From positions 25,792,001 to 25,856,000 of the forward strand of contig NC_092674.1 of assembly GCF_964355755.1 (NCBI RefSeq): 64,000 nt of DNA, written 5' to 3'. Position 1 is the stretch's first letter. Every line of letters starts with the position of its first letter. Positions 40-63,529 of this stretch are shown here, piece by piece. Under the pieces are notes generated by a model that worked only from the letters and a program-made list of their open reading frames with translations, had not been told where the DNA came from and ran no database searches. The position numbers and the translations under genes were made by a program. This stretch comes from Antedon mediterranea (taxonomy: Eukaryota > Animalia > Echinodermata).

Positions 40-225
40 ACTATCCGATTCCCAGTGCTGTATCTCCATACTGTCTGTCTCCGAAGTAGCATAGGAATAT
101 TTTGTAAATACGTCAGCATCTCATTTATATCACATGTGGTGATAAGGGTTAGGTTACTACTAGATACACGTGAAACACATGTGGTGCTGTATTACCAAAT
201 ATTCCTACGGAAATAGATACAGTTT
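40..225 (+). repeat. Dispersed repeat (second copy at about 14908-15060)
   Basis: Both sites share cgattcccagtgctgtatctcca...gttaggttactactagatac...gtattaccaaatattccta. Confidence 0.7.
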
Positions 226-278
226 CACTATATTTTACTTACTTTATTTTAATCTATATTGTTATCGTTATTTTACAG

Positions 279-28765: not shown

Positions 28766-29167
28766 TTCGACAACAATACCCGTATGATAACGCGGGAAAA
28801 TTAAAACGAAGGTAGATCATGCGCACATTTCGATAACGCCACTTTCCGAAATGTCATAATCGCGGAAGTTACATCAACTGCACGGACAAAATAAAATGTT
28901 TTAAAACTATTGTTTATTTACAAAGCGTTCAAAATGTACATAACGGCTACTAGTACTATTTCTGTTCTGTGTTTATCTATAATAAGCACACGCTGTTTTT
29001 ATTTACAGTTGTCCACATTTTAAATAATAAAATAGTACTGCTGTCATTTTACGATGAAATATTATAAACAATGTATGTGAGATATCTGAATATGGGATAT
29101 TAAATTACAGATAAATATTGCCAATACTTGTGTATAATCATCCTTTTCCGCGTTAAATTACAGAAAC

Positions 29168-32866: not shown

Positions 32867-35800
32867 CTCTTGACATCAGCAACCTCAACATAATCAGGAC
32901 TGCCTAAATCAAATGTTCCAAGTTTTTGAAGTGATGTTTTATTCTTAAAAAATTAAATAAATTAAAATAGCAAATGTTAGTGAAGATTAATGATATTGTA
33001 AAAGATGGACATTTTTCTTTACCTTTTATTGGTGCAAGTTGACAATATTTTTTCTACTTTTTTTTATTAGCCATTTTAGGCACAAAAATCATTTTTTCAA
33101 CCTTTTATAGGCATTTCTGTTAATAGTGGTTTAAAAAAAAATCTTAACAAATAATAACGAGAGGCAAGCATGATTTAACGTTTTGATCACGAATGATGAT
33201 CATCAAATAAAGATCGCAAAACGTTGGATCATGGCTTGTCTCTCGTTATTTGATGTCAGTTTTATACTATGTTATTAAAACATAATCAGTTCATCTATTG
33301 GTTCTTAACAACAAATGCTTGGATTTGCTTTAACAAACAACAACAACATACCTGCTTGCTGTCTTGTTTTTCTTGTACCATCTTCATATACTTCTGCATT
33401 ATTGGATCTATTTTACCATCATCTTCGTTTTCTTCTTTTACATCACTCTCTTTTCCATCTAATCTATCCTTCTTATCATTATCAACTTCTCTGCTTTGTT
33501 CACCAGCTTTCTGTGATGCCTACGAAATGTGATACATCTATAAAGCTCTGTCTACACTATCTAACTAGTTTGACAAAAGAGTGTGATGTGCCCAAATATG
33601 GTAGTGATATGACATCATCATGTCCATATATGGGCACATCACATTGTTTTATCACATAAAGTTTGATAGTGTAGATAAGGCTTTAGAGAATACATTTTGT
33701 TGAAAGGAAAATAATTTAATATCTCATAATTATATGCATTTGGTTTTGTTTTCCTATTTGACAAGGTGCTTTTTAGTGACCTCTGTGACCAAGCCCTCTG
33801 ATTTTCTCATACCTCTTGTTTCTCAAGTTCTTCCAGCATTTTCTTCTCTCGTTCCCTTGCTTCTTGTTCTTTTTTCTGTCGCTCTTCCATTCTTTGTATC
33901 CGACGTTCCTCCCATTCTTTTTCATCTTGTTTTCTTTTCTCTTCATCTTTTGCAAGTTGTTCAGCTAATACAAAAAAAAGCATATTGTTAATATTTATAA
34001 CACAATAAATGTCAGTGTTGGTTTTTAACATGAACAAAGATCAAATAGGGTAATGATATGCCAAAAGGTGGTATTGATATGCCCAAATATGGTAGTGGTA
34101 TGACATCATCATGTCCATATATGGGCACATCACACTTTTGTTGCCAAATAAACGTTGATAGCAAGCTCTTCTGTAGTTACATTTCTTCCATGAAGAATCC
34201 AAAGAGATTGACTGATCAAAAGAAGGTGTTTTCCAAGCCCCATCTAGAGATGGTACACTGACTTCAGCTACTGGTTGGTGATTCGAAGGTTTATTCCAGG
34301 CACCATCCAAAGATGGCATATTGACATCTGATGATTGGCCAATAAAGTTGCTAGCTCCATCCAACAGAGGAATAGTGCCATTTGCAACATCTTCTGGATT
34401 CGTCATAGCTCTGTCTAGAGATGGCATGGTGACTTCTGCTGCAGAATGCTGATCAGAAGATTTTTTCCAAGCTCTATCCAGAGATGGTGAATGTAATGCT
34501 ATAGACAACAAAAATAAAGTATGCAATTACTGTAAGAATATTATCAGTATAATAGAACTTGGATAAGGACTATAAACTGTAGGTCCAGTGTACACATCTA
34601 GCTCGTGTGCACTTTAAAGAACCTAGTACATCTTTCGAGATGAGTAAAGGTTTACCCCGGTGTACTAGTACATCACAGCCACTGATCATAACTGGGCCCT
34701 CTGGGAGACTAGTCTTTGACTGAAGACGTCACCCTGTTCTGAATATTGTACTAAGATTTACCAAGAGTCCTCAACATTTCTTTAGAAAACTTACCATTGA
34801 TTGGATCAGAATATTCTTCAACATTAGACAGATGACTTCCAGGATCGCTGTGTCTAGTATCTTCCCTTCTTAGAGCATTGCCATTCTGTACGAATCCAGA
34901 TGAAACTGGTGCATGGTCATCCTCAACTTCTCCATTAATGGTTGGAAGACTTTGAATGTCATGAACTTGAGGAGTGTCTTGAGCAGCCCGATACACTTGA
35001 TGAAAATCTTCAGTGACCCTGCGACCTTGTGGTAAATTTGGGATGCTGTTGCGGCCTTGTAACAGGCCTGTTGTGATCTGGTCAAGCGGTTGAGAAGTAA
35101 TGCCAAGATCCACACCAGATGATGGCATTTCTGGCATCCTTTGATTCCGGTAGCTTGTACCAGTTGATGACTGATGTTGTGATGGTATACCACTGTTTGA
35201 AGGATCAGTTCTACTGCAGAAACAAACAAAAATAACTAATCCTTAATTAAAAATAGAAAATAATTGATGATGCAATTTGATACCCCAACATGTAATTTGA
35301 CATCACAACATGCAATTTGACATCACAACATGCAATTTGACATCACAACATTCAATTTGATATCCCAACATGTAATTTGATATCCCAACATGCAATTTGA
35401 TATCCCAACATGCAATTGATATCCCAATATGTAATTTGATATCCCAACATGCAATTTGATATCCCAACATGCAATTTGACATCCCAAAATGCAATTTGAT
35501 ATCCTAAAATGCAATTCGGATCAGATCCTGCAATTCTACATACCAACATTTAATTTGACCAATCCAGATATGCAATTTGACATGCCAACATGCAATTTGA
35601 CATCCCAAAATGCAATTTGACATCCCAACATGCAATTTGCAATCCCAACATGCAATGTGACATCCCAACATGCAATGTGACATCCCAACATGCAATGTGA
35701 CATCCCAACAACATGCAATCAAACGCTCTATCATCTACACCACTACAAGCACTCACCCAACAGGGTAGATGCCACTGTGACCACCTGCATTCCAACGGAG

Positions 35801-38800
35801 ATCACTAATACTGTATGTATTAGAAGACACTGCTGGCAGTTGAGAGGTAGAAGTTACAACTCCAGATCTTCGCTGACGGCCTCCAAAGGTAGTCAGGTTA
35901 TCATTTGATAATTCTGTGATGTTAAAGCATGATTATTTATTGGAAAAGTATACAAACATTATCAAAAGCTATCTATATTTTAGGCACACTGGCAATGACT
36001 TCAAACTCACTCCCCTCAAGAAGCGCACAAGATAATTGTTTGTTAGGAGAGGAGTTGAATATGAGGAGTTTATGAGAAAACATATGACATGATTTGAACC
36101 CCAGGACTGAAGTATCAGTAGCGAAGCACCCAAACCCTCAAGTTACAACTTGACATTAACAGGAAGAACATGCAATTCCTCTATAATCTAATTAAAGCAT
36201 TTAGTGGACCCTGGGGAAAATACGGTGTTCTATACCAAAGGGCCCGTCATATCTTGCATAGTACGATAAACACATACCTGTTTTAAGTTCTGGTCTATGC
36301 CTTGATGTCATTGAACCTCGTGTTGGAGACAGGATGCTACTTATAATGCGTTTTGGAGAGTTTAAAGCATTTGGATTTGACAGTTTGTGTTGAAAGTTTT
36401 TGTATGACTGTTCTAAATTCTATATCAAATAATAAAAATAATATGATAAAAGTTATTATTACAAATCGTCCATAAATTACCTTAACAGGTCAAAGTTTAC
36501 AATAAAACATTGAATTTAACATTTACGTTACATTTCTGGGGAGAACACATCATAAAAATAGACATTTTCTTAAGCTCTGTCTACATTATCAAACTAGTTT
36601 TTAAATAAAAGTGTGATGTGCCCAAATATGGTTTTGATACGCCCAAATATGGTAGTAATATGACATCATCATGTCCATATATGGGAACACCACAATTTTT
36701 GTCACATAAAGTTTGATAGTGTGGACAGAGCTTTAATGTTAAAATATGTAAAGAAAATTATGATTGAATTTTATATGTAATGAAAATTGAACATATGACT
36801 TACCTCTGCTTCCCGATCCAACGAGCGGAAGCGTTCTCTGGTGTTTTCCAGGAACGCCAACGATGTATCTGGTGTTGGACTTTGTTCCCAAGCTAAAGAG
36901 GTTTCAAATTGATCAAGGTGTTCTAGTATTGGTTCATGTCCAGCTGAGGCTGTTCTGATTGGTAAATAAACATCTTCATCGTGATGGCCAGAGGTCAATG
37001 AATTTGAATGTATATTGGGGCCAGTTGATGCAATGTCATGTACAGGGACATCCCTATTTAGAAAAAGAATATTTTTTTTTTGTTGTATACCATTTTGATC
37101 AATAGTTCTATTTGAAAACCTGCATGTCACAACGATCTCTAGAAGGAATCGAACCAGTGACTTTTAGCCTACAGGTTTAGAGCTTTAACCATCCATCCAG
37201 CTATTGCTGATCATTAGGGACCTTCAGACAAACATATACACAAAATACTCTACATAAACAAAGTCTTATTACAAGTCTTTGAGAGAGGAGTAATTTGGTC
37301 CTTAGAAAAAATCCTGACATTTGATGGGACTTCAACCCAGGACCCTTGGAGTGGTAGCCAAGCATCATAACCACCAAGCCACAACTCCATTCTTGATAGA
37401 ATACAATATACAATATACTGTCTATATCATCATGAGATTGTTAATGTAATTATTGACTGTAATAGTATTATTATAACACTATTTAATATAATTTCAATGA
37501 AATCTCAATTCATTTGGAAAAAACCAAGTAGAAATCCTCATTTGTATTGGGAAACCCTAGCAAGGAGACACTCTCCTATGAATCGATGTTTTAACATTAC
37601 GACCAACTTTATATATATATATATATATATATCTATACAGCTCCATTAAGAAGGCATTTTGCTGGGTCCTGATGATGTTCTAATTGAGTTTAACTTACTT
37701 GAAATGGCTACTTTTATTTGGTTTTCTGTAAACTTCATTACTTAGAGCAGTTCGCGTTTCCTGTAGAGCAGTTCTGACTTCTTGCAATTCACGATTCATC
37801 TCCTTCATTTGGAGAGTTTGCTCATCCAACTGTCTTTGAAGTTCACGACTTCTATTAACCTGTTCAAAATAATATCAATGCCCAAGAATTCTGTTAATGA
37901 AAATAACATTCTGTACCTAAAGCCAGGCTTATTTGACACAGAACTCAACTAAAAGGAAATGGTTGCTCAAGAACGGTTACTGTATGTCGATTTTTTGAGC
38001 TACTGAAAGGAACTTGTGTGCAAGTGCTTATGTCGACACTGGTACCGATTGTAACTAGACGTGGATATGATACTGCATACGGACGCAATACATTTGTATA
38101 GGAACCAGTGTGTGCGCAAGCATTTGTATGGTTACGTGGTTATATCAAAATGATTGCTATAGTTCTGTGTAGACATAATCCCGGCTCAACCAATGCTAAA
38201 AGTTTAAATTTGTTATCATAGCAAGCTTTTCAGTACCACGCAAGTTTTATATGGCAAATAAACATTACACCATGTGTTTTCCAAAAAGGAAATAACATAC
38301 AGTTAAGAAAGACTATGTTGTTACACCTCACTAGTCTTTACTTCCTTTTATGGAAACACATGTTGTACTGTAAACTTTACTATACTTTTGTTAAGTTGCC
38401 TTTCATATTATTCAGAGTAAGGACGCATACCAACTGCTTTGCAAGATTTAAAAGGTGGATGGATACAAAACTCCTATTTAAACTACCCTGTTTATTTTAA
38501 TATGATTTTCTATAACATTATAAATACATAGAGAAAGATGATATTGTGTTTAAATATAAAATGATGTGTGTATCATCATCATGTTTTTATGGTCACATCA
38601 CATTATTTTATCAGATAAAGTTTCATAAAAAGTTTACCCAGAAAGAAAATAAACATCTTACTTTACCTCAGACTGAAGTTTTGAATTAAGCTGAGCTTCT
38701 CTGCTTTCCATAAGTGCCTTCTCCTGTTTTATTCTATCCCTAGCCCGATGCAGTTCTGCTTTCATACTAACAACTTCATGCGAAGGTTGCGAGGCTTGCA

Positions 38801-43807: not shown

Positions 43808-46471
43808 TTTCTAAACCGCTTTACACACAAAAATCATCCATAAAAAGTAAACAAACAAAAAGAAGATAAACAGAGGAACCATATCCACTTGAGTGAAAAT
43901 GCATCTGTCTATTAATTATATTTGGTTGAAATTTAGTGCAGGACAAAAGTATATTAATTAGGGGTGGGGCATGATAGGGGCGGCACGCTCTCTCTTTTGA
44001 CAGCTAAAATCAAATTATGAACTACTTTTGTTTTTTTATCAAGAATAATATTATAGCCTATTAGCTCTCCAGTAGCGTATCCAGGATTTTTCCAAGGGCT
44101 AAATATTGTGAAAAGAAGTGCTGAGCTTAATTTTATGTCCCATCTTTTGAATTACAATTTGCAAAATGCAGGGGGCCCGGGCCGGCTGTCCGCAAACCCC
44201 CTGGATCCACCCCCTCCCCTCTGTTTATTTCTTTCTGGTATCAGTCATAAAAAGACAATTGGGATCTTACTTCTTTTCTTGATGAATCTAGCTTCACTCT
44301 AAACTTCTCACGTTCTTCCATTTCAATGTTACGACATTCATTTTCCTTGAATCTTGTAATCTGAAAATTTACAATATCTGATTATTAATTATTATTGATA
44401 TTATTATTACATTATGGTTTATATATTTTATTGGAAAATAAAAACTGAAACTGAATATCTGCATTTGATAATAAAACAAATTCAGGTTTTAAAAAAAATG
44501 TTGTAATCTGAAAATTTGATTCTTAATTAATTATTAATAATATTATATTTATTGATTGATATTATCATTACATTATGGTTTATATCTGTATTTGAATATA
44601 AAGCAAATTCAGATTAAAAAAATTAATTTTTAATAAATATACAACATTTTTGCAAATCCCTGCATTTTAGCTGACCTCAAGGTTAAGTTGTTCCTTTGAC
44701 CTTGTTTCAATTTCTCGTTGGAATGACAGCATCTTCTCAGTGATGACATTTGACCCTTGGAAATCTTCTCCTTGGGCTCGGCTCCGGAACTCTCTGTCAA
44801 CATCTTCAAGTTTATCAACTGAAAAAAAATAATTTTATTCAACATTTAGTTGGCTTACCTAATGAAGAATGTGAAGAAGGAACAGCTTGTACACCTTTTT
44901 GCTCTCTGACCCTCCAGAGTGGCTATTGACTATTTCATTATTCAAAATGTGCTGTTTCATTGTGTCACTTATATCATTTTTATAGATACTGTACAGTAAA
45001 TCCATAAAAGGTAATAATATGTCCATATTTAGTTTGCTTACCTAATGAAGAATGTGAAGAAAGGTCAGCTGTACACCTTTGCACTCTGACCCTAAACAGT
45101 GGCTATTGGGTATTTCATTAAAATGTGCTGTTTACATTGTGTCAATTATATCAACACATACTGTACAGTAAATCCGTAAAAGGTAATAACATGTCCATAT
45201 TTAGTTGGCTTACCTAATGAAGAATGTGAAGAAAGGTCAGCTTGTACACCTTTGCACTCTGACCCTCCAGAGTGGCTATTGGCTATTTCACATAATAGTT
45301 CCCAAAGAAAACCTGTGCAGTAAACAAAGCCACATTGAATAACAATAACTAATAAGGAATTAATGAAAATAAAAAGGATGAACTGATTATTGAATCCCAT
45401 TATGCATTGCTTTTTTAATTAAGTCTTGAAATAACATTAAAAAAACAAACCTTTTGAATGGTAAGTTGGCTGTGATGAGGCCTGCAACAAAATAATAATG
45501 AATAATTGTTGCATTGCCATACGTAGTGCACTATGTATTAGGAAACAAAATTTGACTATCAAATATTGGTAAATAGAGCTAAAATATGACTTACTATTTT
45601 TCTGTACAACTTAGAATCTGGATTTATTTTAAGTAACTGAAGAAGATCTTTTGTAGAAAAAAGCTGTAAAGAAAAAACTTTATTTATTTATTTTTTAAAA
45701 TTTATTATTTACACTATGTATTATGTCGGTGATTTTACATTTAATAATTAAATTAACAAATTCTAACAATGCTCACCTTGTCAGAAGCGGCACAACTCTC
45801 AGGCAAGAACACTGCTAATGAATATTCATACTGGCACCTTCGAAGGTGATCAGCAACAAGACTGTTAGATGCCCGATGAAGAAGTGAATTTTCTTCTTGA
45901 AGAGGCACTGTAGATTTAGAGAAATCTTGATTGAGGGCCGAGTTCCTGAGCTCAACTACTAACTTGCTTCTCAGTTGTGACTGAAAAGAAAGTTATTAAA
46001 GATCAAAGTTGAAAAGGAGGTCAAGGGTGAAAAGGAGGTTAAAGTTGAAATGGACGTCAAAGAAGCTACTCAAGAGTAGATGGTAACCACTTGTCACTTT
46101 TGTGATTTAAAGTTACTGTCATATTAGGGTCTAGGTCTAATACATTTATGAATCAGTATAGAACTGGCACAAAGTTCTGTTTTAATTTATTTTTTCAATT
46201 TTTTATCTGACAAGAGGACCAATTAAAGTGTGTTAGACAGCGGTTCTTTTTCAAATGATATTCTAGCTTGGCAGGGGGAGCTAAAGGATTCAAAAGTTGC
46301 GGGAATTAGGCAAATCACATGATTATGATAATGCATAATTATGAATTTATTTACTTTGACTTTTAAAAAAAGCATATTATTTACCTTTAGATTTTGAATC
46401 ACACCTCTTTCCTTGAATGATTGATAAAGCTTAGTTTTAAACTCATCTGAAGTAAATTCAGCTTCCTCCAT
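32867..46471 (-). CDS. OFD1: OFD1 centriolar/ciliary protein (LisH plus coiled coils), about 1130 aa traced; terminal exon unresolved
   Basis: 24 phase-consistent GT-AG coding exons (high to low): 46471-46385, 45980-45777, 45663-45595, 45481-45451, 45312-45214, 44818-44676, 44360-44271, 43733-43650, 43037-42931, 42826-42707, 41662-41589, 41344-41253, 40184-40039, 39246-39203, 38830-38667, 37859-37699, 37053-36804, 36419-36278, 35913-35757, 35213-34795, 34498-34181, 33964-33813, 33519-33352, 32943-32867. The N-terminus KLYQSFKERGVIQNLKSQLRSKLVVEL...ASNSLVADHLRRCQYEYSLAVFLPES and the C-terminal DPIMQKYMKMVQE match OFD1. Confidence 0.93.
33150..33252. mobile_element. Short palindromic MITE-like element
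   Basis: Inverted arms aataacgagaggcaagc.atgat..aacgtttt and aaaacgtt..atcatggcttgtctctcgttatt. Confidence 0.6.
33542..33683. mobile_element. MITE family A, intact copy (further copies or fragments at 7571-7630, 32380-32459, 34045-34170, 36572-36734, 38530-38625, 40380-40510)
   Basis: TIR aagctctgtctacactatc...gatagtgtagataaggctt with the conserved core gtgatgtgcccaaatatggtagtgatatgacatcatcatgtccatatatgggcacatcac. Confidence 0.85.
34555..34750 (+). mobile_element. 5'-truncated Deu/Nin-domain SINE
   Basis: ggataaggactataaac.gtaggtccagtgtacac...ttaaagaacc...gagta..ggtttaccccggtg is shared with 54577-54935. Confidence 0.7.
35268..35718 (+). repeat. 20-bp minisatellite (tgcaatttgacatcccaaca)n in an OFD1 intron
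   Basis: Directly visible tandem units; the source of several spurious ORFs at 35303-35795. Confidence 0.95.
37315..37390 (-). mobile_element. Degenerate tRNA-derived SINE head
   Basis: The reverse strand has an A-box-like tggcttggtggtta and a B-box-like gggttgaagtccc, but no intact cloverleaf. Similar remnants lie at about 36085-36140 and 37145-37200. Confidence 0.45.
41739..42316 (-). mobile_element. Non-autonomous Helitron
   Basis: The minus strand starts A|TCtatatata and ends CTAG|T, with a GC-rich sub-terminal hairpin (ctagatggtacgc...gcgtaccatctag) and no target duplication. Confidence 0.75.
43108..43368 (+). mobile_element. 5S rRNA-derived SINE, copy 2 (more diverged)
   Basis: The 5S-like head gtcta.atggcc.tattacgttgaaacactggttttcgt...accgaagttaa...gggcctgtttagagctt is followed by the body ggcatttgaaatcagcact.ctgactc.tatggcagcccc...ctctggtcaaggtgggcactg...ttgatcaatg.taggaccaa, shared with copy 1. 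Confidence 0.8.
44845..45295 (-). repeat. Triplication of the 3' part of OFD1 coding exon 5 plus its donor site (~175-bp unit)
   Basis: cttacctaatgaagaatgtgaagaa...gtacaccttt..ctctgaccct...gtggctattg occurs at about 44855, 45037 and 45209. Only the last copy has the upstream cag acceptor and an open frame. Confidence 0.85.
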
Positions 46472-47560: not shown

Positions 47561-48505
47561 TTAGAATTCTAACCATTCATTCATGTAAACACAGTTTGAT
47601 GGGGAAATAGCGCCACCTTCATGGCATTGATCAAATACGGGGCAAACTCCGCATGGTACACGCACAAGTCCAGTCGGTTCTATTAGCTTCCCAACGGCCC
47701 GATACAACTTGACCTCACCAGCGTCGGATGACCCTCCTTGCCCGGCCATTATTGTCATTTCGACACTTCCATCGAAGATTAAAGTGTTTAAAATTGTCTC
47801 TATATCATCTACAGAAAGTTCTACTTTACTTATTCCCAACTCGGAAATGTACTTCCAAACTTCTTTTGACGATGCAAATGATTTTAGTTGAACACTTAGA
47901 GGTTCCAGTTGCATTTTTTTTGCAAGTTCAACTTTTTGACTCAAAAATTTCAAACACTGCTGGTTTAAAACATCGACAAATTCTGCTTCAAAGTCTTGAT
48001 CACTGTACCACGCGCCACCCGTTACGCTGCGGTCAGGCTGTATGTTATACAACATGTAAACTTTCTTCTTTGAGGCGCCAACTGATTTCACCGCTTTGAT
48101 TAGTTTTCGTGTTTCTAAGTTTTTCAGGATTTTATTCACTTGAGTTTGAAGAATATTACTGCGATATCGGATGTCGCGTATCCAAATTCCTTTATTTCCA
48201 GATTCTTCAATTATTTGATATACCAGTTTTTCTTGGTTATCTGCACCTTTAATTTTAGCAGACGATGTTGGATCTTTAGCCCTGTACATTAACTCTGTAC
48301 TTGTCTTGACTAGGTCGATTTTACCCGTGGAAAGCAGCCTGTTGATGGCCGAAACACGTTGCTGAGCACCCACGTCTGGTAGGTGCTTCTGAATAACGGA
48401 GTCGGCTACACCTTTTGAGTTTTGCCTACAAAGTTCCATAATTCTAACTTCAAGCTCCATGACGTCAGTAGGTTCTTGTTTTACTGAAGTACTTGAAGAA
48501 GCCAT
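47561..48505 (-). CDS. POLR3F: DNA-directed RNA polymerase III subunit RPC6 (RPC39/C34), single coding exon, 314 aa
   Basis: Complete ORF with the hallmarks GNKGIWIRDIR, LKNLETRKLIKAVKSV...KKKVYMLY, SVTGGAWYSDQDFEAEFV and the C-terminal Fe-S motif PCGVCPVFDQC...ISPSNCVYM..WL. Confidence 0.96.
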   Translation of the reverse strand: MASSSTSVKQEPTDVMELEVRIMELCRQNSKGVADSVIQKHLPDVGAQQRVSAINRLLSTGKIDLVKTSTELMYRAKDPTSSAKIKGADNQEKLVYQIIEESGNKGIWIRDIRYRSNILQTQVNKILKNLETRKLIKAVKSVGASKKKVYMLYNIQPDRSVTGGAWYSDQDFEAEFVDVLNQQCLKFLSQKVELAKKMQLEPLSVQLKSFASSKEVWKYISELGISKVELSVDDIETILNTLIFDGSVEMTIMAGQGGSSDAGEVKLYRAVGKLIEPTGLVRVPCGVCPVFDQCHEGGAISPSNCVYMNEWLEF

Positions 48506-49397: not shown

Positions 49398-49469
49398 GGC
49401 TCGTTGGTCTAGTGGTATGATTCTCGCTTCGGGTGCGAGAGGTCCCGGGTTCAACTCCCGGACGAGCCC
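49398..49469 (+). tRNA. tRNA-Pro(CGG)
   Basis: GGCTCGTTGGTCTAGTGGTATGATTCTCGCTTCGGGTGCGAGAGGTCCCGGGTTCAACTCCCGGACGAGCCC forms a canonical cloverleaf with anticodon loop TTCGGGT; a T4 terminator follows. Confidence 0.97.
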
Positions 49470-49817
49470 ATTTTGTATCCTTTTGTTCTGTTGAAAGAGA
49501 ACATATTGTAAGTATTTTTTCCTTAATCTATAGCGTCACTGCAACTAACGGATCAGATTGTTGTAAATGGTATTATGAGAGAACTTTCTTCCTGTTTTAA
49601 AGTATTTGATGGTCTTTTCCATCTTATTTTCTTCCTTTGTTATCGTTTTATACTTATATGAGTTTATGAGTTTGCCACTGTTTGGGAGAAATTTGTAATT
49701 TCTGTCTAAACAGTTACTGAAGGCAGGACGCAGGAGGTCATATTGTCTATCTGGACGGTCACATTACTTCAAAGCATCCACATAGATTGGCGTGATGTAG
49801 GCACCTTTAGTATATAT

Positions 49818-49889
49818 GGCTCGTTGGTCTAGTGGTATGATTCTCGCTTCGGGTGCGAGAGGTCCCGGGTTCAACTCCCGGACAAGCCC
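49818..49889 (+). tRNA. tRNA-Pro(CGG), variant with an acceptor-stem mismatch
   Basis: Same as the other copies except the 3' strand is ACAAGCC instead of ACGAGCC, giving a C:A mismatch; a T6 terminator follows. Confidence 0.9.
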
Positions 49890-50208
49890 TTTTTTGTTCC
49901 GTTAACATTGACCATTATTGTAGGCCTACCAATGTGTTATCTTGGATTGATTCCAACACCCACATTATAATTCGGGTAAAAGAAAAGTGTTGGTTATTGT
50001 AAAACAAGTTAGTGGATGATCAGATGACGCACTAAAAATATCAATTTTACAAGCCTATCTATTAATTTTTTTTATTTCGTTTTCTAAATAAATAAGATTG
50101 AAAAATAACAACTCGAAACTACAACTTTGTAACGACGCTACTCCAGTATATTATTGAGTTATTTCTTTCGTTTAATCGTCTTTTTTTACAGAACACTTAA
50201 CGTCTTCC

Positions 50209-52813
50209 TTAAGCCTCATTTTTCTTTCTTTTGTGGAAAAACGAATTACAAATAGCATATATAACATAACATAATAACACACGCAAAGAAGTCACTTACT
50301 TTAGATGTTTTAATAATAACAGCTTCTTATCTTAAAACATAGATATAGGTAATATTCTATCGAATCAAAGACATAGCAATGTCCAAAAGCTCGTGAAAAG
50401 TAAGTAAACTTGATTTAATGTTATACAGAAAATTAATGTCATTTCATCTGATACATTATGATGTGAAATCTACTGTATCAAATCTACTATGCTATCATAC
50501 GCCTATTTATTACTAATTAGTTGTATTGGTTTGATAAAACGAAAAGTTCTGCGTAGTTCAATATTCGTCAAAACGTTACTGAAAAAAAATATAAGAATCA
50601 GAATAAAATTAGAGGCTAAATAGTATCGAAAGTTTTGGATACGAATTTTTTTATTCATATTATTTTAACAGTAATATAGCATGTCAACTAACTTACCATA
50701 CGCTTCTTTCGTGACATTACCAATTTCTATAACAAAAATATCGAATAAATATAATTATGTTATATAATATTGTTTGATTATTTAATTAACTCATTGTGTA
50801 CCTTGGATGAGTCGTCTACAAGAAAATAATTAAAGTCATGTGATTTGTCAATTACGTCACGTTCGTCTATCATGGCAAAATAGAGATTTTTCTTAGTATA
50901 AATATGTATCCTGCATTAGTTTAATTGTGTACTTTCTTTTAACAGTATAATAAGATTCTGAATCTTCTGATTAAAGACTTACCTTTTCATATAGTCATCT
51001 TTTTTTCCAACGTTACCAAAATCTGTAACAAATGCATCGAAAGATGTTAATAATAAATTTTCTTTTTTTGTGATTTTAATACATGACACCTTTTCTTCAA
51101 TAAATTCTAAATCAAGTTAATCGACGTAAACAACTTACCAATGGCTTCTTCTCTAATTTTACCAGAAGCTGTTGACAAAATAAAACAATTACAATATCAA
51201 TTCTAGTCTAGATTCAGACAGCCTAGACAATATGTCGGTCGGTTGGTTGGTTAGTTGGTCGGTCGGTAAAAACTAAAACTAAAATTTACGCACGCGGATG
51301 CAGTCATGTATATGACCTTGTTACAGCAATATTATTCATATTAGTTAATTAGTTATTTTATGAGACTTACCTTTAGCTTCTCTCTCCATTCTACCAGAAG
51401 CTGATGACAAATGAAATGTATTAATAGATTAAGTTTAGTCGACGGTGTTTAAAAGTTGTTTTCGTATTATATAAAGAAAATACTTTAAGTTAAATCTGCA
51501 GAGTCATGAGTTTGTATTGCACGATGACCTAAAGTATGAAATAATATTCAAAGATTTGCATCGCGAATTAAAAATATTATAGTAAGAGTCAGGTTTGCTG
51601 TACACCTTTGTTGCTGAAACGGAAATAATACAGTTTGAGGATGTCTCAACTTCACTACCTTTTCGAGAACATGGTGTAGTACTTCAAACTTAATAGTTTA
51701 ATTTCAAATTACAAACATACCATGAAGCATGTTCCCCTTGTTTATCTGCGGAGTGTTATCTATGAATTTAATGAAAATAATATAATTATACGGATACGAT
51801 ACTGATACGATACAAAATTATAAAGGGGTTAAAATTAAACTACAACAGCTTTTCATTGTGGCCACCTCAGCACTCTCTGTACATGTACTTTTGCCATGAA
51901 CATGTTCACTAACCCCATCCATTGCTGTGTCGTGTGATTATTATAACTAACAATGAAAGAAATTCCTCTTTTTGAATTTAACTATTATTATTATTATTGT
52001 ATAACAATGTCTGGCTCATTTGAGTTACAGAAAAATACTTTGCTTAAGCTTCCTCCGCCCAGCATTTTTGATGAATATTGTTTGGATTGTAATAATGATT
52101 TTGATTAAACAAACGAAACGATATAGATAGATATTCTGATTGTTGTAACAAAGAGGCCACTTTATGGTAGAATGGTTTATCGGTATTCAAAAAAATAGTT
52201 TGAACTTTCGGCTCCAACTGCTGATTTTTTTTAATGAGTTTGGCTTTCATTGCGTGAGATTCACTAAAGAGTAACTTATTCAGAGATAGTTTTATATTTA
52301 TACTTACCTACTTTTCCCATAAGCAAGGCGTCAGTGGTTAAGGTGCCGACTGTAAAGTCTGGTGTTAAACGAAAGAAATGAGACAGAGAGACAACCATGT
52401 AAGTTACGATTAGTACAAGTGTTTAATGGCAAAACAACACGTCCTTTATATACAGTAATACCTAGCACGCCACCACTCAGGTGTGTATGCAAATTGGGGT
52501 CTAGCGCCACCATATTACATCCCTCTTATCGACAAAAATAGAAAGTTTTTTTTTAGATTTTTTAGAATATAAACATTTAGAATATATAACAACATCCCCT
52601 TCACAGCAAACTTGAAACTACTAGCAAAATATCATACAGTCAAAAAAAAAACCAGAATTACCACGAGGACTTGCAGACTAAAATTGATAGAGGTCTATTT
52701 TATAAATATTTATTTATTAACTAAACATAAAAACAATAGTCCATATATGCCTATACTTTACACGCCTTTAATCAGAATTAATTGAACTTTACTTACCGCC
52801 GAGAAGAGATCAT
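50209..52813 (-). pseudogene. Micro-exon secreted-peptide gene, copy A (signal-peptide exon interrupted by a ~300-bp insertion)
   Basis: Exons: 52813-52797, [52677-52652 + 52349-52308], 51759-51721, 51400-51371, 51168-51139, 51022-50983, 50815-50802, 50726-50697, 50330-50300, 50227-50209 (TAA). They read MISSRRLQVLVVIL//GTLTTDALLMGKV-DNTPQINKGNMLH-ASGRMEREAK-ASGKIREEAI-DFGNVGKKDDYMKR-RLIQ-EIGNVTKEAY-DKKLLLLKHLK-KKNEA*. Splice phases all join except across the insertion. Confidence 0.62.
52348..52651. mobile_element. Insertion with 7-bp TIR (GACTGTA...TACAGTC) plus an A10 run in the copy A signal exon
   Basis: Absent from the matching exon of copy B (57736-57806), which is contiguous there. 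Confidence 0.7.
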
Positions 52814-53638
52814 AATGCCAACTAAGTGTGTACAAGTTAATACAACTAAATCTGAAGTAATATTTAAACAAATGCGTCACAAATGTAACTGTTAGTATAG
52901 TCTATATAAAGTTAATATACAGAATATTCTATTTTAAAATAAGGGGTTAGAATATCTATATATATATATAGCCATTTAAGATTCAGTTTTGGTGTTTAAA
53001 GCTCAATTGTAAGTTATATTATCTTGCAATTGCCCAGAGGCGATGGAGGTATAATTTACGACACTTGTACCTTTTCAATTATGGTATATTAAATGATAAC
53101 GTTACTTTCCATTTCTTCTTTCTGAATTTGTTATGGACTAATCTATTCAGATAATTTTCACAATTGCATTTTCTCTCCATTAAATAAAATAATCAATCGC
53201 ATCTACTGAATGCAGTGCTTTTATTCATTCTTTTATTCAGCTTAGCCTACCGTGTCCATGGCTCTTCTTTAAGATTTTAAGAGAAACAATAAACAAATAT
53301 CAAAAGGGAATTATTTGTCCAATGCTACTGGATCTAAAATAAAAACCATACCATCAACTTGTTGTAAGCTATATATTCTACACTAGCAAAGTAGAACAAA
53401 CTGTTGTTTGCCATTATGATAATGTGCATGTTTTGTGTTTGATAGGCCTATATTTAAGTAAATTACTAGTTGTCTATTTGGAGGAAACTCAAGCAAACTC
53501 GAGCAAACTTTGTCATTAACACGTTTCCCAAAGTTTGCTAGTGTAGACCAGTTGTACACTACAGTATACAATCAAATAGTCTCGAAACTCTAGCATGATT
53601 GTTAGATGGACATTGTGTAGGCTACCCATGATATAATT

Positions 53639-53710
53639 GGCTCGTTGGTCTAGTGGTATGATTCTCGCTTCGGGTGCGAGAGGTCCCGGGTTCAACTCCC
53701 GGACGAGCCC
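53639..53710 (+). tRNA. tRNA-Pro(CGG)
   Basis: Identical to 49398-49469; a T9 terminator follows. Confidence 0.97.
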
Positions 53711-54576
53711 CTTTTTTTTTGTCCTTCTTGTTTTGTTAAAAGAGAATATATTGTAACAAAGTATTTTTGCCTTAACCTAACAGCGTCATTGCAACTAACG
53801 GAATAGAAGTATGTCGACTTGTAAGCGGTATTATGAGAGGACTCTTGTTCCTGTTTTAAAGTATTTTATGGTCTTTTCCATCTTATTTACTTCATTTGTT
53901 TTCGTTTTATACAGTACATTACCGTCATTTTCACGCTAGCTTTTCTTCCTCCGTGTGAGGCTACTTTGGGAAACGATAATAACTATACCCGACTGTTTGT
54001 AGCCTAGATATGACACAGGACACTAACACGATAAATCGCGGTTCCCAATTGGACGCATGACGCAACGACAGGTACGACGAAAGTAAGTTAACTAATTACA
54101 AACAGTATTTTGGATGATCTATCGCGTCGTGATTGGTCAAATTACTTTTTCCCTGCGCTGCAAAATAGGAGGACAAAATAACACAGAAGCAAAGAAGTCA
54201 CTTACTATAGATGTTTAATAAAATAAAAGCTTCTGAGCTTAAAACATAGAATATTAATAATTATCTATGAAATAAAGTGTCCGAAAGCATGTCAAAAATA
54301 ATTTTTTTTCAGTATAATTCAGTTTTAAAATTCATTACATAGCTTGATAATCTATAGAGTACACTTTACTAAAACAAATCCATACATAATAATCATACGC
54401 CTATTTCTATTACTAATTCAATGTTATTATATTGGTTGGATAAAAGGAAAGTTCTGCGGAGTTCAATATTCGTCAGAATAATCACTGAAAAAAAAAGAAG
54501 AAAAGAAATAGAGGTTAAATTTATAATATCGAAAGTTATCAAAATTGTTTCTATTCATTAATCGTTTAACATTAAC

Positions 54577-54935
54577 AGCGAGTCATATGGCCGAGCGGTT
54601 AAGGCAGGGGCGCCGTTTACCGTATCTAAAGAGCCAACAACAACATCGGCAAGGGTTCGAGGCCGACTCGCTCCTAGTTCTGGTGGTGGAACAAGTCTTC
54701 TCGGATAAGGACTATAAACCGTAGGTCCAGTGTACACAGTTATAACCTGTGTGTACTTTAAAGAACCCAGTTCATTATTCGAAAAAGAGTAGGGGGTTAC
54801 CCCGGTGAACTGGTTCACACAATAGCCCCTGTATCAGGAGGATTACCACCTATCTGATAGGACAGTGATTAATTCACTATTGGTAATCCTTGGCCACATT
54901 GCCTAAAGACATAAAATAAAATAAAAATAAATAAA
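54577..54935 (+). mobile_element. Full-length tRNA-derived SINE with a Deu/Nin-like central domain
   Basis: A box tggccgagcggttaagg, B box ggttcgaggcc, central cggataaggactataaaccgtaggtcc...ttaaagaaccc...aagagtagggggttaccccggtg, and a (taaaa)n tail. It is absent from the matching position in cassette copy A. Confidence 0.8.
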
Positions 54936-55094
54936 TAACAGTAGGCCTATAACATATTATGTGAAGCAACCATAGAAGAGGAAAAAATAGGCACAGCCTA
55001 CCCGCTTTTCTTTTGCGACGTTACCAATATCTGTAAAACACATTTAAATAACATGTTATCACAATAACTGTTTGTAAACTTTGTATTGTATACA

Positions 55095-57979
55095 TTAGAC
55101 GACTTGTCTACAAGAAATTAATTGAGTATTGTGATTTGTCAATTACATCACGTGACTCAATTCCCAGTAAATCGTCTACCTGCCTATTGTGTAGTATTTA
55201 GTTAGTTGCTGAAGAAGATTTTTATCATTTCATTATTTATATATTCGGTCTATTTCAGTATAAACATAACAAAAAAAAACCTGAAATTGGGGAGACCAGG
55301 GTCAACCTAAGTGAATTAATCACTGTAGCTGAGCCGGTTAACCCAACACCAAAGTCAGGTCTTAGAGCTGCAGCATCAGCATCAGATAAGGATCGAAAAT
55401 TTCACATGGAATTATTGGTAGTTTGAGGTAATAAACATCATTTAAAATGATGTCTTTCTTGAATTGATTCTGAATCTTATGGTTTATAAGACTTACCCGT
55501 CAGCTTCTTTCGCAACGTTACCAAAATCTGTAACAAAACATCGAAAGATGTTAATGTCAATAATAACTGCAGTGCATGAATCTCATGTTCATTGTGATTT
55601 TTTTATTTAACAGATTCTGAAATATATATATATATTATTCGGCGTATAAAACTTACCATTGGCTTCTTTCTCAACTCTACCAAGAGGAGCTGCAGGTGGT
55701 AAAAATGATATTTTTGGCCATTAAAAAAACCCCTGTACTAAATACAATCATTATTGGTATAACGAATTTAAAATACTAAAACCTAAAAAAGACTATTACT
55801 ACAGACTTTGAGCAAGTATACACCGGTGGTATAAAATAATAATCTGAATATTATATTAGGCACTCTTCACCAAAAAAAAGTCTCATAAAAATCAAAGTTG
55901 GTCGATTCCTTACTATAGAGACTATGCTCTACTAATGCATTATAATAGATAGATTAGGCCTTATCTATATTTTTTTCCAAATTATCATCAATATATTTTC
56001 GTCAGTGATTAATATTTCATAAGTTTTAAAGATTATTATTAGTTTAGACGAGACTTACATTTAGCTTCTCTCTCAATTCTACCAGAAGCTGATGACAAAA
56101 TGAACACAGAATAATTAGTTTAGTAGCCCTATTTTCACTGCGGTGTTTAAGTATATCGTAGGCCTACACAAAATATTGCTTTAGATACATTTATGGTAAA
56201 TCTGCATATTCATGAATCTGTATTGACGGCCTATATATTTTTGTAAGATTAACTAGTTCTTCCCACTTTATTTATATTTCTGGCTCTTTAATTTTGAATC
56301 AATTAGATACTATAGTATTGTTAACTCTTCCTCTCTGTCAACTTATCGCAAAAAAAAAAAATTAAAAATCATTTTTATCATTGTACTCAAACTAGACCTT
56401 CAAACTGTTTTTGTCATGACATTTTTTATTTTATATATATAATTATTTACAAATGTACTTGCGTGACAAGAAATCTCTTCTTGGAAGATCCTCTATTAAT
56501 GGTATTTTTGTATTTTCTCATTATAAATTATCATTTTTTTTTATTGTATTGCTTTTAATAGAAACTAATAAATGTTGAGAAACAAAGATTTAGCAGAAGA
56601 AGAATTTTAATTAATTAATTTAAGTTTGCGGTACACAATTGTTGCTAAAACGGAAATAATGACGTTCAAGAGAGGATGTCTCAACTTTACTATGATCCTT
56701 TCGGAAACATCTTATACTTTATAGATTATAAATTTCTAATTTCCAAAAGTATTCAAACATACCATGAAGCATATTCCCCTTGTTTATTTGTGGTCTGTTA
56801 TCTGTGAAGGTAATACAATAAAAACAATATTTATACAGATACGATACTGATTTTAAAATAAAACCCGTAAAATCAAAATTACTAAAAGTGTTAACATTAA
56901 AATAAAACGTTAGTTTGGATCAGGGAAGAGTGAAATTACTCTAAAGGGTCGTTCACACCTGTTCCGGCACGGTTCCGGTCCGGCGAATCGAACATCAATG
57001 TTTCATTTTTACGCGGCTATGCGCCAATCGATATGTGCGTAGCCGCGTGAAAACGAAACATTGACGTTCGATTAAATTTTCCGGCGCCGGACCGGAACCG
57101 TGCCGGAACAGGTGTGAAAGACCCTTAATTCTAATTCTATTTTCAGTCTTCCCTGGTTTTATTTGGACAATTAGACAACAACGACCTCTCAGCACCCTCT
57201 GTACTTCTGTTGTTCACCAATACCATCCATTGCTGTGTTGCGTGATTTAGTCAACAATGAAAGAAATTCCTCTTTTTGAATTTAACCATGGAGCTATACA
57301 ATTTTATAGCTCCATGATTTAACTATTATCGAGGTATTATTATTATTGTATGACAATGGCTCGTTTGATTTACAGCAAAATACTCTGCCCAGCATTTTTC
57401 ATTGTGTGTTTTGATTGTAATTATGATTTTTAGAATAAATAAACGAAACGATATAGATTATATAATGGGGTTGCTTTCACATCGCGGCCCGGATTCGGTC
57501 CGGTGCCTTGAGAAAAATATCGTGGAAAATGGATTCAGTGGTAAAACGTATAAAGCAAGATTCACTCAAAATCCTTACGATTTGAATCAGTACCTGATTC
57601 GGACTCCGAATTCGGTCTAAACAAATAGTCTGACCTTTTGGCTCCGACTACTGATTTTTAACTGAGCTATATCGTTCGTAAGTTTCGTGAAATTCACAAA
57701 AAGACGTTAACAGAATAGGCCCAATTTATACTTACCTACTTTTCCAAAAAGCAAGGCGTCAGTGGTTAAGGTTCCGACCACCAGGATTACCACGAGGATT
57801 TGCATACTATAACGATAATTGATAGTTAGGTCTATTTTAGAGATATCTAGTTTCTGCTAGGTTATGGCTTGATTAATGATATGAACCATAAACAATATAG
57901 GCTATAAGACCCATAATTTACGTACCTTTAATCATAATTAATTTAACTTATAGATAGCTACTTACCGAGAAGAAATCAT
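55095..57979 (-). CDS. Micro-exon secreted-peptide gene, copy B (about 76 aa, intact signal peptide)
   Basis: Exons: 57979-57966, 57806-57736, 56801-56763, 56088-56059, 55689-55657, 55527-55497, 55107-55095 (TAA). They read MISSRMQILVVILVVGTLTTDALLFGKV-DNRPQINKGNMLH-ASGRIEREAK-SPLGRVEKEAN-DFGNVAKEAD-GQVV*. All are AG/GT bounded, phase-consistent and homologous to copy A. A candidate non-coding first-exon donor lies at about 58489. Confidence 0.68.
56946..57125. mobile_element. GC-rich palindromic MITE (Harbinger-like)
   Basis: TIR of about 40 bp, agggtc.ttcacacctgttccggcacggttccggtccggcg and its inverse, with TAA flanks; absent from copy A. Confidence 0.85.
57286..57315. mobile_element. 30-bp palindromic insertion with a 7-bp target duplication
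   Basis: atttaac[catggagctata caattt tatagctccatg]atttaac; copy A has the single empty site gaatttaactatt at about 51975. Confidence 0.75.
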
Positions 57980-58363
57980 AATGCCAAGAGTGTACAAATT
58001 AATATAACTAAATCTGAAGTAATACTAAAAACGAATGCGTCACAAACTGTAACTGTTAGTTTATATACAGTTAATATACAGAATATTCAATTTTCAAATA
58101 AGGGGCGTTGTGTTAAAATATAATAGTTTTCCCCTTTTATTATCCATTTAAGTTCACTTTTGGTGCTTAAAGCTTCATTGTAAGATACAGTATATATTAT
58201 CTTGCAATTGCCAAGTTAGAATGTTGTCAAGAACACAAATGTTTGTTACTTTGTTTTTCTTCTCATTTTGGTATGGATATTCCATTCAGATATTCCATTC
58301 ATTCAGATAATTTCCACCATTGTATTTTCTTATAATAAATCAACCAACTCTACAGTGTATCCT

Positions 58364-58364
<1 letters not shown>

Positions 58365-58417
<53 letters not shown>
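58365..58417 (+). repeat. (ATC)n microsatellite
   Basis: Directly visible; explains the poly-I and poly-S ORFs. Confidence 0.95.
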
Positions 58418-58418
<1 letters not shown>

Positions 58419-58679
58419 GTCGGCTGCGATGCAGGCGACTACAAGCTTTCTCCAGTGTATCCTTTATTCATCCTTTTAATCACCTTACCGTGTCTTCTCG
58501 GCTCTAAATTTCTCAAGGATTTTAAAAGAACCATTGAACAACCAACAAAGGAGAAAGATAGTCATTTGTTCAATGATACTAGATCTAAAATTAACAGTTA
58601 TTGGAGGCATGTTGTCTATCTGTAGGGTCATATTCGAAGCACCCACATAGATGGCCTTGGGCGCACCCTCAGTATATTT

Positions 58680-58751
58680 GGCTCGTTGGTCTAGTGGTAT
58701 GATTCTCGCTTCGGGTGCGAGAGGTCCCGGGTTCAACTCCCGGACGAGCCC
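58680..58751 (+). tRNA. tRNA-Pro(CGG)
   Basis: Identical to 49398-49469; a T4 terminator follows. Confidence 0.97.
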
Positions 58752-62497: not shown

Positions 62498-63529
62498 TTG
62501 TTAAATAATACGAACCAAAGTGACTGTTTCTTTTCGTAGAATTAAAATACGGGTCGATTATTATAAATTTTTTTCAAAAACATCGAGGTCGATACATTTA
62601 TTATTGATTTTCAACCAAATTGCCGAAGGATATCCACAGTAATAACGCCGCTCTATAATTGCATGTCAGTTTATTATTGCCTGTTTTGGTACTAGAACGA
62701 TGCCCGTGTGTTGCGGTCACTTCGTGGTGTCAAAGGTGTGGGTATAGTTGGTAGGCTATAGTGTTCATTTTGTATGAATTGGTGGCGGCCAGAAGTCTCA
62801 TACTTCAGTAAAAATCAAGTCCAGGATTGAACCAAGCCCAGGATTGTGATCTAAAATCGGCCTTCACTTTGCTTTGATCCATTTCCCACTGCTTTGCCAC
62901 ATGTCCAAAATGTTGATCCGATGGTTACTAGGGTGCGGCTGCTCCACCAGGGCTGTGACACAATATCCAGAGATGTTAACATTCAATACGACCAGAAATG
63001 TCTGTACTTTAAGGTTAATTCTCCTTCGTAAAAGTTCATTATGATTAATACATAATAATACAGGATTGTTATTATTTTTAATTAATGATTTAATGATGAT
63101 TTTATTTTATTCGGAAAATCATTAAAATACACGAAAACAATACAACGTTATAACATTAACTCTGACAGTGACATAAATGGATTTTTTAGGATTTTAGTTA
63201 TTTTTCCCAGTTTGGTCATTAATTTTTTAAAGCAGATTGTTAAATAATACGAACCAAAGTGACGGTTTCTTTTCGTAGAACAAATACGGGTCGATTTTTT
63301 TTACCTTTATTATTAATTTTTAAAAAGCATCGAGATTGATACATTTATTATTGAGTTTCAAACAAATTGCCGAAGGGTATCCACAGTAATAACGCCGCTC
63401 TATAATTGCATGTCAGGTTATTATTGCCTGTTTTGGTACTAGAACGATACCCGTGTGTTGCGGTCATTTCGTGGTGTCGAAGGTGTGGGTTGAGTTGGTA
63501 GGCTATAGCGTTTTGTATGGATTGGTGGC
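62498..63529 (+). repeat. Direct duplication of about 290 bp (62498-62787 and 63238-63529)
   Basis: ttgttaaataatacgaaccaaagtgac...attggtggc is nearly identical in the two copies, which are separated by about 450 bp. Confidence 0.9.
62901..63013 (+). other. Candidate coding exon (MSKMLIRWLLGCGCSTRAVTQYPEMLTFNTTRNVCTL)
   Basis: Kozak-like gccacATG, an open frame to aag|gttaat, and an upstream acceptor cttcag| at about 62808; no recognisable domain. Confidence 0.25.

What the first reader, a model, noticed from the sequence alone, without database searches (positions are those of the whole stretch)
50209..58600. Hidden micro-exon gene family encoding a secreted peptide built from exon-sized 10-aa modules
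Seen: two paralogous minus-strand genes made almost entirely of 14-71 nt exons, which the ORF track misses. A signal-peptide exon (MQILVVILVVGTLTTDA) is followed by a 39-nt exon and a series of mostly phase-1/phase-1 exons of about 30-40 nt. Each encodes a variant of one module, [ADE]-x-G-[RKN]-[IVM]-x-[KRE]-E-A-x: ASGRMEREAK, ASGKIREEAI, DFGNVAKEAD, EIGNVTKEAY, SPLGRVEKEAN. Copy A continues through basic sites (KK, KRR) to a cationic/hydrophobic tail DKKLLLLKHLKKKNEA. Splice sites are conserved in both copies. Established: symmetric micro-exons allow combinatorial skipping, as in the micro-exon genes (MEGs) of Schistosoma. Inference: a lineage-specific variable secreted peptide or precursor (defence, adhesion, gamete or neuropeptide role). 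I do not recognise the family.
Basis: partly seen in the sequence, partly recalled or inferred. Interest (0 to 1): 0.85.

Follow-up and report, generated by a model that had tools for sequence, protein, structure and literature searches.

The report
Feather-star micro-exon secreted peptide genes
A feather star has two neighbouring spliced genes built mostly from 30-40-base exons that likely encode small secreted peptides of no known family, predicted to fold on membranes as possible defence or mucus effectors, with a gene layout best known from parasitic flatworms.

Summary
The genes are real. Contigs of one run (X1) join the predicted micro-exons at GT-AG introns; two DNA runs show none of these joints. 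The neighbouring POLR3F places the window in a crinoid. Two tandem copies, bounded by tRNA-Pro genes, each predict a 22-23-residue signal peptide and a 53-55-residue, cysteine-free, charged peptide; exons 1-4 show dN/dS 0.28. Combinatorial skipping of symmetric exons was not seen. No homologue or paper was found, but only unspliced frames were searched. Function is inferred: likely a disordered peptide that forms an amphipathic helix on membranes (supported for copy B, not copy A). It works like a schistosome micro-exon gene but is not a member. The scan noted a similar layout once before, in a cephalopod; this family not.

The parts
57966..57979 (-). Copy B exon 1 coding part (ATG, 14 nt, phase 2)
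   Evidence: Conserved ATG and GTAAGT donor in both copies; not covered by X1 contigs
57736..57806 (-). Copy B exon 2, signal-peptide core and first 6 mature residues (71 nt)
   Evidence: B-type loose end of X1 contigs matches 57779-57803; hydropathy peak 3.67, Thr/Ala at -3/-1
56763..56801 (-). Copy B exon 3 (39 nt, symmetric)
   Evidence: 34/39 identical to copy A; both X1 contigs cover the homologous exon
56059..56088 (-). Copy B exon 4, module with R-x-x-R motif (30 nt, symmetric)
   Evidence: 28/30 identical to copy A; spliced in X1
55657..55689 (-). Copy B exon 5, module (33 nt, symmetric)
   Evidence: Splice signals; inclusion inferred from the length of the 402-nt contig
55497..55527 (-). 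Copy B exon 6, module (31 nt, phase 1 to 2)
55094..55107 (-). Copy B candidate exon 7 (14 nt), holds an in-frame stop; probably skipped or vestigial
   Evidence: 9/14 identical to copy A
55002..55030 (-). Copy B exon 8 (29 nt), module copy read in the shifted frame; stop ends at 55021
54200..54484 (-). Copy B terminal exon (3' UTR) with ATTAAA at 54214-54219; 3' end approximate
   Evidence: X1 contig (record 1) runs unspliced from the acceptor to about 54305; ATTAAA and GT-rich downstream stretch
52797..52813 (-). Copy A exon 1 coding part (ATG, 17 nt, phase 2)
   Evidence: not covered by X1 contigs
52308..52677 (-). Copy A exon 2 (signal peptide), split in this assembly by an insert
   Evidence: Insert-free allele joins 52651 to 52350 in DNA runs X2 and X5 and keeps the frame
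52351..52650 (.). 300-bp repeat fragment with an A-run at one end, inserted in copy A exon 2; polymorphic
   Evidence: Depth 3900-5300 against about 270 in X2; matches the first 290 nt of a 4141-nt X1 contig; absent from X2/X5 contigs that bridge the site
51721..51759 (-). Copy A exon 3 (39 nt, symmetric)
   Evidence: Both flanking joints in X1
51371..51400 (-). Copy A exon 4, module with R-x-x-R motif (30 nt, symmetric)
   Evidence: Both flanking joints in X1
51139..51168 (-). Copy A exon 5, module (30 nt, symmetric), a duplicate of exon 4
   Evidence: Both flanking joints in X1; similarity to exon 4 and its acceptor
50983..51022 (-). Copy A exon 6, module (40 nt, phase 1 to 2)
   Evidence: Joints to exon 5 and to exon 8 in X1
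50802..50815 (-). Copy A candidate exon 7 (14 nt); would restore the module frame if included
   Evidence: Skipped in the X1 contig; translation
50697..50726 (-). Copy A exon 8 (30 nt), module copy read in the shifted frame; stop ends at 50717
   Evidence: Joint 50727-50985 in X1
50295..50578 (-).
   Evidence: Homologous to the terminal exon used by the B-type contig; no A-type contig seen over it
53639..53711 (+). tRNA-Pro(CGG) between the two copies, one boundary of the duplicated unit
58680..58751 (+). tRNA-Pro(CGG) upstream of copy B, the other boundary of the duplicated unit

Best explanation
Two tandem feather-star genes are spliced from 30-40-base exons and likely encode 75- and 78-residue secreted precursors whose mature 53-55-residue peptides are predicted to be disordered in water and would fold into an amphipathic helix on membranes or other lipid surfaces, likely acting as secreted defence or mucus effectors.
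For: Six X1 joints absent from DNA runs, with depth bins matching exon lengths exactly in 6 of 6 bins checked. The 402-nt B-type contig fits exons 2-3-4-5-6-8 plus terminal exon within 1 nt, the only one of 16 exon subsets that fits. Exons 1-4: 51 codons, pS 0.18, pN 0.056, dN/dS 0.28, Fisher p 0.036, no indel in exons 2-4. One hydrophobic stretch only, at the N-terminus; no cysteine; both mature peptides fall on the disordered side of the charge-hydropathy line. Copy B's 31-residue module core has a helical moment reached by 14 and 8 of 5000 shuffles on two scales, peaking at 100-103 degrees. Schistosome MEG products offer the working analogy: small, disordered, some folding on membranes or binding liposomes through amphipathic helices (PMC10526429, PMC4671649; passages).
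Against: Copy A's core has no significant moment (1684 and 1149 of 5000 shuffles; 1005 of 2000). Net charge is only about +1 (B) and +3 (A) and mean hydrophobicity is low, unlike classical cationic antimicrobial peptides (recalled). No tissue, stage or activity data. Only one RNA-like run, listed as a guess by the tool, and only contigs; reads were laid on copy A alone, so copy B's exons 5-8 are inferred. Exon 1 is uncovered. dN/dS is not significant in the signal (p 0.12) or mature (p 0.054) part alone. No SignalP was run.
Confidence: 0.45

Rival explanations
1. The product is a precursor cut by a proprotein convertase at the R-x-x-R motif in exon 4 (followed by a Glu-Ala dipeptide) into two or more signalling peptides (pheromone, sperm-activating or neuropeptide-like).
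For: R-x-x-R at mature position 23-26 in both copies, in the best-conserved exon (28/30 nt); repeated decapeptide-like modules ending in x-Glu-Ala-x; similar G/R-x-W C-terminus in both copies.
Against: Copy B has no dibasic site and neither product ends in Gly; crinoid neuropeptide precursors were defined by dibasic sites and often C-terminal Gly (PMC9793003 section 36); 0 hits for 5 motifs in its 7 supplementary files.
Confidence: 0.2
2. The peptide is a structural secretion (larval attachment glue, mucus scaffold, biomineral or egg-coat matrix protein) that self-associates through its alternating-charge modules, evolving by exon duplication as vertebrate SCPP genes do.
For: Signal exon followed by short symmetric exons encoding disordered modules is the SCPP pattern (PMC9122587, PMC3632108; passages); balanced K/R and D/E content (9/8 and 11/8).
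Against: Only 53-55 residues with three to four modules; introns are phase 1, not phase 0; not acidic, not Pro/Gln-rich, no cysteine.
Confidence: 0.2
3. One reading: the symmetric exons are skipped combinatorially to give a pool of variant peptides, and exons 6, 7 and 8 switch between alternative C-termini, as an immune or recognition diversity system.
For: Exons 3-5 are symmetric; skipping exon 6 or including exon 7 gives open alternative products; exon 8 keeps an open module frame; a null allele of copy A segregates.
Against: One isoform per copy in X1; no joint skipping a symmetric exon among the 6 X1 joints (contigs drop rare variants, so weak). Symmetric exons make up only 42-45% of the coding sequence. 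Purifying, not positive, selection on exons 1-4. Exon 8 in its module frame is no better conserved than introns.
Confidence: 0.12
4. Artefact, non-coding RNA or decayed pseudogenes: the exon pattern is incidental or no protein is made.
For: Copy A's signal exon is broken in this assembly; no annotated protein with this N-terminus exists although the neighbouring POLR3F is on record; alignable intron blocks are 79-90% identical, close to the exons.
Against: Precise GT-AG joints in X1, an intact allele of copy A, synonymous bias and no indels in exons 2-4.
Confidence: 0.03

Closest known systems
Schistosome micro-exon genes (MEGs), especially the small amphipathic group MEG-9/12/26/27/28 (PMC4350168, PMC4671649, PMC10526429; passages read)
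   Same: Signal peptide in a longer 5' exon, a central coding part of very short exons, small (about 6 kDa mature) disordered product, tandem paralogues, predicted amphipathic helix (copy B).
   Different: Free-living echinoderm, whereas MEGs 'appear to be restricted to platyhelminths' (PMC4350168); no sequence link found; exons are copies of one module; fewer symmetric exons (3 of 6 short coding exons per copy, against 79% in MEG-26 to -32); purifying selection instead of high dN/dS; no isoform pool seen.
Vertebrate SCPP genes (PMC9122587, PMC3632108; passages read)
   Same: Family held together by exon layout: signal exon plus short symmetric exons encoding disordered modules, grown by exon and gene duplication.
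   Different: Phase-1 rather than phase-0 introns; not acidic or Pro/Gln-rich; no link to SPARC-like genes seen; echinoderm.
Predicted crinoid neuropeptide precursors PCNP1-20 (PMC9793003; abstract, section 36 and supplement search)
   Same: Short crinoid secreted precursors of no known family.
   Different: No motif match in 7 supplementary files; dibasic sites absent in copy B; no C-terminal amidation Gly.
Small amphipathic-repeat proteins such as exchangeable apolipoproteins, group 3 LEA proteins and synucleins (recalled, not tested)
   Same: About 10-11-residue charged repeats punctuated by Gly or Pro that fold on lipid; similar size to the small apolipoproteins.
   Different: No Pfam, PDB or database hit supports homology (unspliced frames only); modules here map one-to-one to exons.

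Membership tests
Schistosome MEG | Most coding sequence in very small exons (under 36 bp) | tested here: inconclusive
   69-70% of the coding sequence lies in exons of 40 nt or less; exon 3 (39 nt) and copy A exon 6 (40 nt) exceed the 36-bp bound given in PMC4671649
Schistosome MEG | Micro-exons mostly symmetric | tested here: not met
   3 symmetric exons per copy, 42-45% of the coding sequence; exon 6 shifts frame in both copies
Schistosome MEG | N-terminal signal peptide | tested here: met
   Single N-terminal hydropathy peak 3.6-3.7 and Thr/Ala at -3/-1; simple scales, no SignalP
Schistosome MEG | Pool of isoforms by skipping of symmetric exons | tested here: inconclusive
   One isoform per copy in contigs of one run; contigs drop rare variants
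Schistosome MEG | Platyhelminth origin or sequence homology to a MEG family | tested here: not met
   Host is a crinoid; no protein hit, unspliced frames only
Schistosome MEG | Raised dN/dS in the mature part | tested here: not met
   dN/dS 0.30 over 29 mature codons of exons 2-4; exons 5, 6 too short to tell; paralogue comparison, not orthologues
Neuropeptide precursor (crinoid PCNP criteria) | Peptides bounded by dibasic sites, often with C-terminal Gly | tested here: not met
   No dibasic site in copy B, two in copy A near the C-terminus, no terminal Gly; criteria
SCPP | Phase-0 introns, acidic or Pro/Gln-rich product with S-x-E sites, origin from SPARC-like gene | tested here: not met
Cationic amphipathic antimicrobial peptide | Net positive charge, amphipathic helix, killing activity | tested here: inconclusive
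   Charge +0.9 and +2.9; helix moment significant in B only; activity not testable here

The most novel reading that the evidence does not exclude
A free-living echinoderm has independently evolved a MEG-like diversity system: one module exon multiplied, symmetric exons skipped combinatorially, a frame-shifting exon trio (6, 7, 8) toggling alternative C-termini, and presence/absence alleles of whole copies, yielding a variable pool of membrane-active secreted peptides, the first such peptide family known from crinoids.
Probability: 0.12. Interest if true: 0.75.

Novelty: new variant of a known kind. Interest (0 to 1): 0.45.

Why it matters
It is an expressed, apparently unannotated secreted-peptide family in a chromosome-scale, annotated crinoid genome, missed because of its tiny exons. 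It shows the micro-exon gene layout outside parasitic flatworms, supporting the view that it is a recurrent way to build fast-changing secreted peptides rather than a parasite speciality. Crinoid peptide effectors are little studied; the two mature peptides (about 6 kDa, no cysteines) can be synthesised and assayed directly. Without a function or shown isoform pool it remains a well-supported orphan gene pair.

Tried and rejected
No whole genome is held for the window, so further paralogues outside it were not sought. No run is on record as an RNA holder; X1 is a guessed RNA run. Homology: signal-exon frame, proteins of 71-2000 aa: 25 candidates, 0 at E<=10; 26-86 aa: 0 candidates; 0 of 1.84 billion at E<=0.001; a local test showed the same query finds the predicted products only at E about 1e-4, so only near-identical N-termini were detectable; 4 exon-bearing frames: 0 Pfam families at cut-off, 1 weak match in mostly intronic sequence; PDB: 2 chance matches at E 0.3-0.5, then 0; Atlas: no usable hit. 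All queries were unspliced frames; the spliced products were not searched or folded. A module profile scored the products too weakly to be useful (26 and 12 bits). Literature: 0 papers for crinoid + micro-exon, micro-exon genes + secreted + echinoderm, four exon motifs; 1 unrelated paper; searches listed nothing on this family; one search was uninformative; the original MEG paper (PMC2909574) is not held. Rejected: (a) the basic tail as coding: shifted by 1 nt between copies, 25/32 identity like its surroundings, downstream of the terminal-exon acceptor, holds ATTAAA, and the final short exon has no counterpart in copy B; lack of X1 cover over it is not counted as evidence; (b) my own early idea of complementary decay (B broken at the 3' end, A at the 5' end, fused into one transcript): both copies proved complete, though a B-to-A read-through is not excluded because both X1 loose ends were B-type; (c) an upstream exon at about 58488-58584: AG/GT present in both copies but 78% identity, background level, no shared ATG; (d) positive selection on exon 5 (pN 0.38, pS 0.17, p 0.63; exons probably not orthologous). 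The whole-copy alignment misaligned after the insert and was not used; only its per-exon comparisons were.


Full report
Setting. The window is 29-39% GC animal DNA. An intronless POLR3F/RPC6 gene at 47564-48505 (Pfam Rpc34) is on record from a 31.9-Mb contig and is 90% identical to the protein of the feather star Anneissia japonica, with all other listed hits at 71% or less. The organism is therefore a crinoid. No whole genome is held.

Anatomy. Self-BLAST shows collinear blocks between about 50270-53340 (copy A) and 54170-58590 (copy B), continuing into four tRNA-Pro(CGG) genes on the + strand. The repeated unit is tRNA-Pro plus gene; the 0.35-kb stretch between the two left-hand tRNAs matches the start and the end of that unit (83% and 89% in ungapped columns) and looks like a third unit that lost its gene. 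Unequal crossing-over between tRNA copies is my inference for the origin. Each copy has candidate exons of 14/17, 71, 39, 30, 33/30, 31/40, 14 and 29/30 nt, internal ones with AG acceptors, all with GT donors. The cassette pattern is far above chance (10 in the locus, mean 0.6 in 300 shuffles), with the caveat that the search pattern was drawn from these exons.

Expression and splicing. One search found 5 runs of the same organism: X1 (RNA by guess, share 0.09) and X2-X5 (share 0.72-0.76). X1, X2 and X5 were laid on copy A (49950-53590) at 80% likeness. Of 11 listed joints, 6 are in X1 and none of those in X2 or X5, so they are not present as intron-less DNA in these runs. An A-type contig (depth 161) joins exons 2-3-4-5-6 at four exact introns and joins exon 6 directly to exon 8, skipping the 14-nt exon 7, with one substituted base. 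A B-type contig (depth 577, 402 nt) joins exons 2-3-4 and then reaches a terminal exon homologous to 50570-50494 with B's indels and 87 further B-type bases. Depth in 6 of 6 bins checked equals contig depth times exon length. Contig depth is not a measure of expression. Exon 1 was not covered.

Products. With exon 7 skipped, exon 6 (1 more than a multiple of three in both copies) shifts the frame and both genes stop 10 nt into exon 8, ending G/R-x-W: 75 residues for B, 78 for A. The stop lies 19-20 nt before the last junction. The 'tail exon' lies inside the probable terminal exon, differs by 1 nt between the copies, and holds an ATTAAA in both followed by a GT/T-rich stretch, after which the A/B similarity ends: most likely the poly(A) site. 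Including exon 7 would give a 93-residue product in A and a stop in B; it may be a minor or decayed exon.

Copy A's insert. In the window, 300 bp (52351-52650) split the signal exon. Contigs of X2 and X5 bridge the site without it, and that allele keeps the frame. The insert is a repeat fragment (about 15-20 times single-locus depth in X2). An X2 contig ends exactly at the site, as a fork between alleles would cause; heterozygosity is inferred. Both X1 loose ends at this point carry B-type letters, which could be allelic variation or conversion in X1's animal, an assembly chimera, or B-to-A read-through; unresolved.

Selection. Exons 1-4 (51 codons, A's extra codon left out): pS 0.18, pN 0.056, dN/dS 0.28, p 0.036; signal part p 0.12, mature part p 0.054. 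Exons 2-4 are 86-93% identical without indels, exons 7, 8 and the tail 64-78%, alignable intron blocks 66-87% with gaps counted and 79-90% without. A's exon 5 resembles exon 4 more than B's exon 5, so modules have turned over since the gene duplicated.

Peptide properties. A single hydrophobic stretch at the N-terminus and Thr/Ala at -3/-1 predict a 22-23-residue signal; the mature peptides are 53 and 55 residues, 5.9 and 6.3 kDa, cysteine-free, net charge +0.9 and +2.9, on the disordered side of the charge-hydropathy line. B's module core is amphipathic at the helical angle (14 and 8 of 5000 shuffles), A's is not (1684 and 1149 of 5000). Both keep an R-x-x-R motif in exon 4; B has no dibasic site; neither ends in Gly.

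Mechanism. I commit to a secreted peptide that folds on lipid surfaces and serves in defence or mucus (0.45 overall; gene reality about 0.95, secretion about 0.85, this function about 0.5 given secretion). Rivals are a convertase-cut signalling precursor (0.2), a structural or adhesive secretion (0.2), a MEG-like isoform pool (0.12) and artefact (0.03). Only the splicing, the stops and the sequence features are shown; the function is analogy.

Comparison. MEGs have most coding sequence in very small symmetric exons, a signal peptide, isoform pools and high dN/dS, and 'appear to be restricted to platyhelminths' (PMC4350168, passages); micro-exons are under 36 bp and 79% symmetric in MEG-26 to -32, and a group of small MEG peptides is predicted amphipathic (PMC4671649, passages); MEG-14 folds on anionic membranes and MEG-24/-27 bind liposomes (PMC10526429, passages). 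This locus works like that small group in layout and predicted physics but fails the symmetry, selection and lineage tests, so it is not filed as a MEG. SCPP genes share the exon-duplication logic but are phase 0 and acidic (PMC9122587, PMC3632108, passages). The crinoid neuropeptide survey (PMC9793003: abstract, section 36, search of 7 supplementary files with long cells cut at 400 characters and one file store unavailable) shows no match; its figures were not visible. The original MEG paper was not available. Protein searches found nothing but used unspliced frames and had low reach. Paper searches naming this family found nothing. The scan's index held nothing near, by sequence or for crinoids; it holds an unchecked note on a micro-exon surface-protein gene in a cephalopod.

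Verdict. A real, expressed, apparently undescribed pair of micro-exon genes for small secreted peptides in a crinoid, shorter and simpler than first read; new variant of a known kind of gene design; interest 0.45.

Noticed in passing
window 47564-48505 (-): Intronless POLR3F/RPC6 gene, 314 aa, 90% identical to Anneissia japonica; lies beside a cluster of four tRNA-Pro(CGG) genes.
   Followed up: yes
window 49398-49889: Two tRNA-Pro genes 420 bp apart; the stretch between them matches the start and the end of the gene-bearing unit and looks like a third unit that lost its gene.
   Followed up: partly
window 51401-51720: Two alleles of copy A intron 3 in X2 and X5; one differs from the window by 24 letters and 16 gap positions in 339 bases, and the 22 differences listed are all intronic.
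   Followed up: partly
window 164-466 and 14482-14793 (+): Two related Cys-rich hydrophobic ORF pieces with a shared block (140-223 vs 14963-15048), resembling proteolipid/M6-type tetraspan exons (recalled); no Pfam hit on these pieces.
   Followed up: partly
window 34041-37163 (-): Three ORFs of 130-163 aa that look like exons of one larger gene, flanked by a small repeat family; no Pfam family at cut-off.
   Followed up: partly
window 56945-57125: Palindromic element with long inverted ends in copy B intron 2, absent from copy A; MITE-like by eye.
   Followed up: no
window 18876-20135, 27869-28767, 35270-35719, 44824-45290: Low-complexity tandem arrays that produce spurious ORFs.
   Followed up: no
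window 62498-62786 and 63237-63529: 290-bp direct repeat, 88% identical.
   Followed up: no
window 57980-58089 and 52814-52933 (-): The 110 bases before the start codon are 92% identical in ungapped columns between the copies; copy B has a TATA-like box 88 bases upstream.
   Followed up: partly
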